Source of the DNA: Eledone cirrhosa
Lineage: Eukaryota
NCBI GenBank assembly: GCA_964016885.1
Contig: OZ024745.1
Span: 310,001-374,000 of the forward strand
Direction of reading: 5' to 3'
DNA length: 64,000 nt
In this document: piece after piece, positions 30,835 to 31,071 of the stretch
Layout: each line of letters opens with the position of its first letter
Numbering within the stretch: position 1 is the stretch's first letter
Made by a program: the position numbers and the translations under genes
The notes under the pieces: generated by a model
What the model was told of the DNA's origin: nothing
Seen by the model: the letters and a program-made list of their open reading frames with translations, nothing else
The model's database searches: none

Positions 30835-31071
30835 TGAAGATAGATATAGAATATTCGAAAATATTCTGTATGTTTATAATAAACATTTTGAAGACCTAAT
30901 CGCTATAGAATAGAATACGTCACGTATTACAATTAGATTCTCGATAAAAGCAAGGGAAGTAACCTACGCGTTTCATTCTTATTAGAAATCTTCAGGATTA
31001 CATATCCAGTGCTTTTATCGAGAATGACACAGCTAGAGACTTATAGAATACTTATTCTATATCTATCTTCA
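30835..31071. mobile_element. Small element with 19-bp terminal inverted repeats and a 16-bp internal inverted repeat, set in (TA)n
   Basis: tgaagatagatatagaata (30835-30853) / tattctatatctatcttca (31053-31071); attctcgataaaagca (30937-30952) / tgcttttatcgagaat (31010-31025). Confidence 0.75.
30959..31001 (-). ncRNA. Minimal type I hammerhead ribozyme motif
   Basis: Minus strand GUAAUC-CUGAAGA-UUUCUAAUAAGAAU-GAAA-CGCG-UA-GGUUAC: 6-bp stem I, complete core, 4-bp stem II (U.U closing mismatch), palindromic minimal stem III ACGCGU, GUA cleavage triplet. Confidence 0.75.

What the first reader, a model, noticed from the sequence alone, without database searches (positions are those of the whole stretch)
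30835..31071. MITE-shaped element with nested inverted repeats enclosing a minimal hammerhead ribozyme
Seen: perfect 19-bp terminal inverted repeats flanked by TA repeats, and a perfect 16-bp inner inverted repeat. The loop of that inner repeat contains, on the minus strand, GUAAUC-CUGAAGA-[stem II]-GAAACGCGUA-GGUUAC. Known: a palindromic minimal stem III (GAAACGCGU) is typical of PLE-associated minimal hammerheads, which are thought to cleave as dimers. Inference: a ribozyme-bearing element shaped like a DNA MITE is unexpected. It is unrelated in sequence to the neighbouring 700-bp palindrome but shares its design of fold-back, hammerhead and TA target, which suggests a recurrent class.
Basis: partly seen in the sequence, partly recalled or inferred. 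Interest (0 to 1): 0.72.

Follow-up and report, generated by a model that had tools for sequence, protein, structure and literature searches.

The report
Truncated hammerhead retrozyme, not a MITE
This short mirror-ended element is a truncated copy of a 310-base repeat that carries a predicted self-cutting RNA and lies in thousands of back-to-back arrays across this animal genome; its ends match those of Penelope-type jumping genes, whose enzyme likely copied one RNA into both sides of a DNA break.

Summary
The motifs are real and at the stated places, but the element is not a MITE. It is a 272-bp, 5'-truncated insertion (30835-31106) of a young 310-bp non-coding tandem repeat with one type I hammerhead per unit; the hammerhead pattern occurs 18,810 times in the genome against 23 for the control. 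Most insertions are two back-to-back arms, 3' ends outward in (TA)n. The '19-bp TIR' is where the two short arms overlap; the right arm runs 35 bp further. In 49 of 50 complete two-armed loci one arm ends at unit position ~130-139 and the other ~35 nt later: the inverted copy plus one-sided 'tail' known from Penelope-like elements (PLEs), also shown by an intact PLE here. Both arms share one haplotype (1/292 and 0/132 mismatches). Lineage variants spare the ribozyme core; the inner repeat is a stem that covaries across three sister families. Verdict: a non-LTR retrozyme, likely PLE-mobilised. Both neighbouring palindromes show the same footprint. Cleavage, expression, circularity and the partner PLE are not shown. 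The scan already noted this family on other DNA of this genome.

The parts
30835..31106 (.). Whole insertion (272 bp): two back-to-back 5'-truncated arms of a 310-bp hammerhead repeat (family A), 3' ends outward
   Evidence: Arm mapping of L001 against the unit; window = L001 position + 29334
30835..31054 (-). Long arm, ribozyme-sense on the minus strand: unit positions 221-310 then 1-130 (numbered from the predicted cut); ends at the 'early' site, no tail
   Evidence: 99% identical to the family unit
31053..31106 (+). Short inverted arm: unit positions 112-165; ends at the 'late' site; overlaps the long arm by 2 nt at the junction
31072..31106 (+).
   Evidence: same tail in tandem units of other loci
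30835..30853 (-). Apparent left TIR = unit positions 112-130 at the 3' end of the long arm
31053..31071 (+). Apparent right TIR = the same unit positions in the short arm; perfect because both arms carry the rare G120A allele
30959..31001 (-). Type I hammerhead motif: 6-bp stem I, CUGAAGA, 4-bp stem II on a U.U pair, GAAA, palindromic ACGCGU stem III; predicted cut 30965/30964
   Evidence: cleavage not tested
31010..31025 (-). 5' arm of the 16-bp stem that encloses the hammerhead (unit positions 250-265)
30937..30952 (-). 3' arm of the enclosing stem (unit positions 13-28)
30820..30834 (.). (TA)n target run, left
31107..31141 (.). (TA)n target run, right
30610..30824 (.). Left neighbour: two-armed, heavily truncated 3' end of a coding PLE family, tailed left arm and untailed right arm
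   Evidence: 43-nt end 95% identical to the intact PLE L163; L186 runs on into the ORF start
31436..32135 (.). Right neighbour ('700-bp palindrome'): two-armed insertion of an unrelated ~545-bp tandem family with a long-stem-III hammerhead-like motif

Best explanation
The element is a 5'-truncated, two-armed copy of a 310-bp non-coding tandem repeat with a predicted self-cleaving hammerhead in each unit (a non-LTR retrozyme), likely written into (TA)n by the endonuclease and reverse transcriptase of a Penelope-like element. Shown: the unit, the arrays, the back-to-back arms, two fixed end sites 35 nt apart used one per arm, one haplotype per locus, structural conservation of the ribozyme and its enclosing stem. 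Inferred steps: (1) arrays are transcribed and the hammerheads, pairing through the ACGCGU palindrome, cut multimers to monomers that may be ligated into circles; (2) a PLE protein binds the conserved stretch around unit positions 125-215, cuts both strands of a (TA)n target and primes reverse transcription from both DNA ends, one at the late site (~165) and one at the early site (~130); (3) both cDNAs run across ribozyme sites on one circular or uncut multimeric RNA, stop at random and are joined through 1-5 nt of microhomology. When both stop early, as here, the product looks like a MITE.
For: Tandem 310-bp units, 0.5% variation among the best 40 loci; 18,810 hammerhead matches vs 23. Two-armed in 28 of 40 best-hit loci and 12 of 16 position-ordered loci, always 3' ends outward (40 of 40). 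One early plus one late end in 27 of 27 complete best-hit loci, 11 of 12 position-ordered loci (1 ambiguous) and 11 of 11 further loci; never two alike. 93 of 94 3' ends run into AT-rich/TA sequence. 32 of 41 junctions overlap by 1 or more nt. 90 of 98 arms cross a predicted cut site, 62 cross two or more, and 5' ends do not pile up at the cut (3 of 96 within 5 nt). Arms of one locus differ at 1 of 292 and 0 of 132 marker calls against 7% and 26% in permuted pairs (0 of 10,000 permutations as low). An intact PLE (L163, 1,025-aa ORF with an RT match by Pfam and a GIY-YIG match in the genome search) has the same inverted arm, early end and 37-nt tail into (TA)n; in its sister family 9 of 15 loci have an inverted arm and none of the 9 carries the tail on it. 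Literature: inverted 5'-truncated copy, 30-40-bp tail at one end, (TA)n bias are PLE traits; a PLE protein cuts and extends both strands and starts at two internal RNA sites that bound the tail; PLEs are the proposed carriers of retrozymes.
Against: No autonomous PLE that shares clear sequence with this unit was found among 44 GIY-YIG loci; the shared 'TTCCAAT' end with L163 is only suggestive. One array (L051) carries a core-breaking G12A change in 4 units and both arms, and three other single-locus variants weaken stem II, so ribozyme activity is not needed for a given insertion; the anole PLE also inserts without it in vitro. Some arrays hold linked variants that recur every few units (L033, L047, L055), which a plain monomer circle does not explain. 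In the right-hand neighbour family both arms end at the same site in 2 of 7 two-armed loci, so the one-tail rule is not universal. Only 1 of 9 predicted Xenopus retrozyme dimers cleaved in vitro, so a motif is no proof of activity. The best-hit set is biased toward the window's subfamily.
Confidence: 0.85

Rival explanations
1. A DNA MITE that has captured a hammerhead: the 19-bp repeats are transposase-bound termini and TA is the target duplication.
For: Perfect 19-bp inverted pair, TA on both sides, short and non-coding.
Against: The right repeat is not terminal (35 more bp of family sequence); none of the other 55 loci mapped has these two ends; lengths run from 229 to 8,801 bp; inverted arms range from 33 bp to over 1.8 kb; most copies are tandem arrays.
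Confidence: 0.02
2. Same PLE-driven insertion, but the template is an uncut linear read-through transcript of a genomic array (or two transcripts of one source locus), not a circle; the ribozyme is a passenger in that step.
For: Linked variants recur in non-adjacent units of some arrays (L033, L047, L055). A core-broken variant was copied (L051). In vitro the anole PLE uses unprocessed RNA. Locus-wide markers such as T127C are shared by many loci (862 units), as expected from homogeneous master arrays.
Against: Rare alleles are fixed through whole arrays on both arms (C162T: 12 of 12 units at L208, 41 units in the genome), and L208 lacks the sub-variants of the only other C162T array. Position 155 flips T/C irregularly along both arms of L208, as repeated reading of one ambiguous base might give. 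Variants that spread between loci keep the ribozyme intact.
Confidence: 0.4
3. Single units are inserted and the arrays and palindromes arise afterwards at DNA level (slippage, unequal crossing-over, fold-back repair, gene conversion), i.e. a satellite with a ribozyme.
For: Periodic variant blocks in the 28-unit array L033; duplicated junctions in L105 and L218; local amplification is proposed in the 2026 preprint.
Against: Fold-back of one arm cannot give the window copy: each arm holds sequence that the other lacks. Outer ends fall at two fixed sites, one per arm, in 49 of 50 loci. Within-arm variation is 0-3 differences per array of up to 3 kb in the position-ordered set.
Confidence: 0.08
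4. A LINE (AP-endonuclease) reverse transcriptase mobilises the repeat by twin priming.
For: LINE-type ORFs are present in the window; twin priming gives 5' inversions with microhomology (recalled).
Against: Both arms start within the same 35-nt window of the unit and overlap in template, which classical twin priming does not give (recalled); no poly(A) or repeat tail of its own; the footprint equals that of PLEs in this genome.
Confidence: 0.05

Closest known systems
Metazoan non-LTR retrozymes (Cervera and de la Pena 2020, PMC7229834: passages and parts 3-4 of 6 read; Li, Clavereau and Pollet 2026, 10.64898/2026.07.22.740005: parts 1-3 of 5 read)
   Same: Non-coding tandem units of 150-450 bp, one type I hammerhead each, low GC (34%), predicted self-paired monomer; weak palindromic stem III (as axolotl HHR_Amex1) and U.U at the base of stem II (as HHR_Amex2); co-resident PLEs.
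   Different: The parts read describe head-to-tail arrays only; 'inverted' does not occur in the 2020 main text. Here most insertions are back-to-back arms with fixed, one-per-arm end sites. Expression, cleavage and circles are shown there and not here. Supplements were not seen.
EN+ Penelope-like elements and their non-autonomous derivatives such as MRC1 (Craig et al. 2021, PMC8557442, passages; Frangieh et al. 2024, PMC11167929, parts 1-2 of 4)
   Same: 5' truncation, inverted 5'-truncated copy at the 5' end, 30-40-bp tail at one end, (TA)n preference, hammerhead, head-to-tail non-autonomous copies, two internal start sites.
   Different: No ORF; arms of up to 28 whole units; no matching autonomous partner found. 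In vitro no difference in start site between the strands was seen, whereas here the two ends use different sites in 49 of 50 loci.
PLE-associated minimal hammerheads (Cervera and de la Pena 2014, PMC4209133, passages)
   Same: Short palindromic helix III thought to need a dimer; U3-A8 core covariation (seen in sister family C); pairs of motifs on opposite strands 100-700 bp apart already noted.
   Different: This motif has the 6-bp helix I and 4-bp helix II of the 'canonical' metazoan type rather than the minimal form; it sits in a short repeat, not beside an ORF.
MITEs (Stowaway/Tourist type; definition recalled)
   Same: Short, non-coding, AT-rich, inverted ends, TA flanks, many copies.
   Different: Ends and length are not fixed, the repeats are not terminal, copies are tandem arrays, and the footprint is that of a retroelement.

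Membership tests
MITE | Terminal inverted repeats at both true ends, shared by copies | tested here: not met
   Right arm runs 35 bp past the repeat; arms vary from 33 bp to over 1.8 kb
MITE | Uniform length among copies | tested here: not met
   229-8,801 bp in 56 loci
MITE | Fixed short target-site duplication | tested here: inconclusive
   Flanks are (TA)n runs, so a TA duplication cannot be told apart; 9 of 56 loci gave longer shared flanks, about 3 convincing
MITE | Autonomous DNA transposon with the same ends | not tested
   No transposase search was made once the ends proved not to be fixed
Non-LTR retrozyme | Tandem units of about 150-450 bp with one type I hammerhead each | tested here: met
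   310-bp period, arrays up to 28 units
Non-LTR retrozyme | No coding capacity, GC below 50% | tested here: met
   Longest stop-free stretch 59 codons; 34% GC
Non-LTR retrozyme | Hammerhead kept by selection on structure | tested here: met
   All 7 variants found in 2 or more loci keep core and stems (rough p ~0.001, hand-coded classes); sister families keep the fold with other sequence, one with U3-A8
Non-LTR retrozyme | Stable self-paired monomer | tested here: met
   Predicted only: circular fold -69 kcal/mol, z -5.7, stems I and II formed
Non-LTR retrozyme | No LTR, primer-binding site or polypurine tract | not tested
   No LTR-type structure seen in the arm maps; PBS and PPT were not searched for
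Non-LTR retrozyme | Self-cleavage of transcripts | not testable with these tools
   Needs an assay
Non-LTR retrozyme | Expressed as linear and circular monomers | not testable with these tools
   Needs RNA data with raw reads or a Northern blot
PLE-type insertion (non-autonomous) | 5' truncation with an inverted 5'-truncated copy | tested here: met
   40 of 56 loci two-armed, all 3' ends outward
PLE-type insertion (non-autonomous) | 30-40-bp tail at one end | tested here: met
   35 bp; 49 of 50 complete two-armed loci
PLE-type insertion (non-autonomous) | Microsatellite/AT-rich target | tested here: met
   93 of 94 3' ends
PLE-type insertion (non-autonomous) | Sequence shared with an autonomous partner | tested here: inconclusive
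   None clear among 44 GIY-YIG loci out of 10,597 candidates
Autonomous PLE | ORF with RT and GIY-YIG endonuclease | tested here: not met
   the element only works like a PLE passenger

The most novel reading that the evidence does not exclude
One circular 310-nt RNA is copied by two coupled PLE reverse transcriptases primed from the two ends of a single break, at two fixed and always different start sites 35 nt apart, each running round the circle; MITE-shaped palindromes like this one are the short end of that product range, so part of what looks like TA-flanked MITEs in animal genomes is retrotransposed ribozyme RNA.
Probability: 0.45. Interest if true: 0.72.

Novelty: new variant of a known kind. 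Interest (0 to 1): 0.48.

Why it matters
How animal retrozymes get into DNA was proposed in 2020 (PLE RT on a circular RNA) and is still called unresolved in a 2026 preprint; how PLEs make inverted copies and one-sided tails is named an open task. This family gives end-level genomic evidence joining the two: a protein-free 310-nt unit with the full PLE footprint, a strict one-tail-per-insertion rule and same-template arms, beside intact PLE ORFs. That makes both questions testable with a short RNA and one protein. It also warns that TA-flanked 'MITEs' can be PLE products. The class and the architecture are each known; searches for the combination found no paper, within a library that lacks most subscription journals.

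Tried and rejected
Rfam at gathering level: no match in the window. Sequencing runs: no RNA holder listed; four runs laid were all contigs, and the 'goes back 310' joints arise from tandem repeats as well as from circles, so they say nothing on expression or circularity. Partner search: BLAST of the unit and comparison of ends against 44 GIY-YIG loci gave no autonomous relative; L122 held only a sister repeat inserted next to a PLE; L112 is another family with no real ORF. Window ORFs are LINE-type, not PLE. I first took T127C/T211A for variants private to L110; one search showed 862 units in many loci, so that argument was dropped. RNA-editing signature: A>G 12 vs T>C 6 among recurrent variants, 8 vs 10 among singletons: not significant, not used. 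Core-versus-flank conservation within family A alone has little power (0.5% variation), so lineage variants and sister families were used. Fold-back origin of the second arm: rejected for the window copy. Pile-up of 5' ends at the cut site: not seen; a mild excess lies at positions 6-30, inside the enclosing stem (15 of 96, p 0.01). TSD search mostly uninformative in (TA)n. The MAFFT alignment misplaces family A's 3' stem arm, so its pair counts (14 of 28 with two-sided changes) are rough; the 13-bp stem was compared by hand. Literature search with a guessed host group gave nothing on this family; the host group was not tested. Rows dropped: L003 (contig start cuts an arm) from the early/late count; L112 (other family); L058/L059 (flank only); fragments under 90% identity.

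Full report
Observation. A hand-written descriptor found this one site in the window, none in 100 shuffled windows and none in 20,000 shuffles of the element. Rfam has no match at gathering level and a weak HH9 match.

What it is. The window lies in a 3.0-Gb genome. A search with the element returned 148 matches in 40 scored loci, mostly head-to-tail at a 310-bp period and 98-100% identical over query positions 1-220. A pattern for the hammerhead has 18,810 matches against 23 for the reversed control; of the first 100 listed, 99 belong to this family. The unit is non-coding (59 codons at most), 34% GC and folds as a circle with z -5.7. Numbering it from the predicted cut, the window copy is two arms: a minus-strand arm of positions 221-310/1-130 (30835-31054) and a plus-strand arm of positions 112-165 (31053-31106). 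The 'TIR' is the stretch 112-130 that both arms contain; the right arm goes on for 35 bp. The inner repeat is a stem of every unit, enclosing the ribozyme.

Insertion pattern. I mapped three sets: the 40 best hits (biased toward the window's subfamily), the 16 family loci among the first 100 pattern matches on contig C1 (position-ordered), and 11 loci picked by haplotype. In the first two sets 28 of 40 and 12 of 16 are two-armed, all with 3' ends outward. Lengths are 229-8,801 bp. 3' ends fall at an early site (130-139, blurred by TA microhomology) or a late site (about 158-172), and 93 of 94 run into AT-rich or TA sequence. Of 50 complete two-armed loci, 49 have one early and one late end (27 of 27, 11 of 12, 11 of 11, counting one late end at 154), one is ambiguous and none has two alike; L003 was left out because a contig start cuts it. 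Inner junctions are scattered, 32 of 41 overlapping by 1 nt or more, mostly 1-5 (BLAST extension inflates this a little). 90 of 98 arms cross a cut site and 5' ends do not gather there (3 of 96), so cut linear monomers are not the main template.

One template per locus. At common polymorphic sites the two arms of a locus differ in 1 of 292 and 0 of 132 comparisons, against 7% and 26% for permuted pairs. The window's G120A allele, which makes the 'TIR' perfect, is found with the tail at only 8 places in 5 loci yet stands on both arms here and at L005. C162T occurs in 41 units, 38 of them in two arrays; at L208 it is in 12 of 12 units on both arms, without the sub-variants of the other array, and position 155 flips irregularly along both arms. 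Against a simple monomer circle: linked variants recur in L033, L047 and L055, and T127C, which I first thought private, marks 862 units. Circle versus uncut multimer is therefore open.

Is the ribozyme under selection? Of the variants in the 43-nt motif, the seven found in two or more loci fall at N7, loop II, position 10.1 or keep stem I paired; none touches the core (about 0.31 of random changes would pass). Variants confined to one locus include a core G12A in four units of L051 and three stem II changes. Two sister families (B, 2,718 candidates; C, 2,835 candidates, 321-bp period, about 66% identical) keep a hammerhead with different stems; C has the U3-A8 core pair, a covariation described for PLE hammerheads. 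The 13-bp enclosing stem is perfectly complementary in all three families though 7 of 13 columns differ. The best-kept sequence between families is the end-site region, about positions 125-215, and family B uses the same two end sites.

The footprint is that of PLEs. Craig et al. 2021 (passages) describe an inverted 5'-truncated copy, a 30-40-bp tail often at one end only, and (TA)n bias. Frangieh et al. 2024 (parts 1-2) show a PLE protein cutting and extending both strands and starting at two internal sites that bound the tail, without need of ribozyme cleavage. This genome has 10,597 GIY-YIG candidates and long open frames with RT matches (6 of 6 tested; 4 of 6 also with a GIY-YIG match in that scan). 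One, L163 (1,025 aa, with a CxxxxCxxC motif before the GIY-YIG as described for Neptune/Nematis), has an inverted arm ending at an early site and a main arm with a tail into (TA)n. The hairpin directly left of the finding (30610-30824) is a truncated two-armed copy of a sister of that PLE. The palindrome to the right (31436-32135) is a two-armed copy of an unrelated ~545-bp tandem family with 3,220 candidates, whose inverted arm ends 86 nt earlier in 5 of 7 two-armed loci and at the same site in 2. So the 'recurrent design' is real, and it is the PLE insertion architecture piling up in TA runs.

Mechanism. Shown: anatomy, end sites, haplotype sharing, structural conservation. Inferred: transcription, dimer-type cleavage (the ACGCGU duplex is favourable, -9.5 kcal/mol, the monomer fold is not), binding by a PLE protein, priming from both ends of one break at different sites, copying across several units, and joining by microhomology. 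Not found: the partner PLE (44 loci compared).

Known and new. The class is the metazoan non-LTR retrozyme (PMC7229834), whose PLE origin is argued from co-occurrence and phylogeny in a 2026 preprint. The two-armed, one-tailed architecture is known for PLEs. Searches for the two together found no paper; subscription journals and all supplements were not seen. My reading was set down before I looked at earlier notes; those show that the scan has reported this 310-bp family and similar ones several times elsewhere in this genome and nothing near this window. They are not independent evidence. The notes call the host a cephalopod; I did not test that.

Verdict. Observation partly confirmed, MITE reading rejected, ribozyme and PLE link supported. 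New variant of a known kind; interest 0.48.

Noticed in passing
window 30610-30824: Perfect-looking 106-bp hairpin is a two-armed truncated PLE end; about 1,010 candidates in the genome; L186 continues into an ORF start like that of L163.
   Followed up: yes
window 31436-32135: Two-armed copy of a ~545-bp tandem family (3,220 candidates, ~95% identical) with a hammerhead-like motif with long stem III and weak stem II; right arm lacks 65 bp.
   Followed up: partly
L163:1275-6170 (G000:C1:83811500-83821000): Apparently intact PLE, 1,025-aa ORF, inverted 5' arm and tailed 3' end; its terminal repeat holds a possible minimal hammerhead core with U3-A8/U3-G8; a candidate protein for in vitro tests.
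   Followed up: partly
L161:3809-6622, L162:2488-5019: Further long PLE-type open frames (938 and 844 codons stop to stop) of one family; L161 has a tandem second copy.
   Followed up: partly
L178 (G000:C14:23498000-23507900); L196-L207: Sister retrozyme-like families C (321-bp period, U3-A8 core in all copies seen) and B, sharing the end-site region with family A.
   Followed up: partly
L208:1078-4648: Unit position 155 alternates irregularly between T and C along both arms of an otherwise uniform array; could reflect an ambiguous base read repeatedly, or conversion.
   Followed up: partly
L105 and L218: The inner junction region is duplicated, giving four alternating segments.
   Followed up: no
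L163, L166, L170, L175: Another TA-inserted family with a hammerhead-like core and the same stem II sequence as family A but a different stem III.
   Followed up: no
window 123-3203 (-) and 32951-36285 (+): LINE-type frames with AP endonuclease and RT; the first has a PHD-finger match after the RT and is open for 1,026 codons, the second is split in two frames with a C2H2-finger match.
   Followed up: partly
window about 42100-58600: Long tandem array with recurring open frames at kilobase periods and steady composition; no Pfam match for the one frame tested.
   Followed up: no
window 29671-29898: 32-bp minisatellite, about six copies.
   Followed up: no
runs X4, X9, X12: Single low-depth contigs of the unit in runs of other coded organisms and a wastewater metagenome; cross-contamination is the plain reading, not tested.
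   Followed up: no
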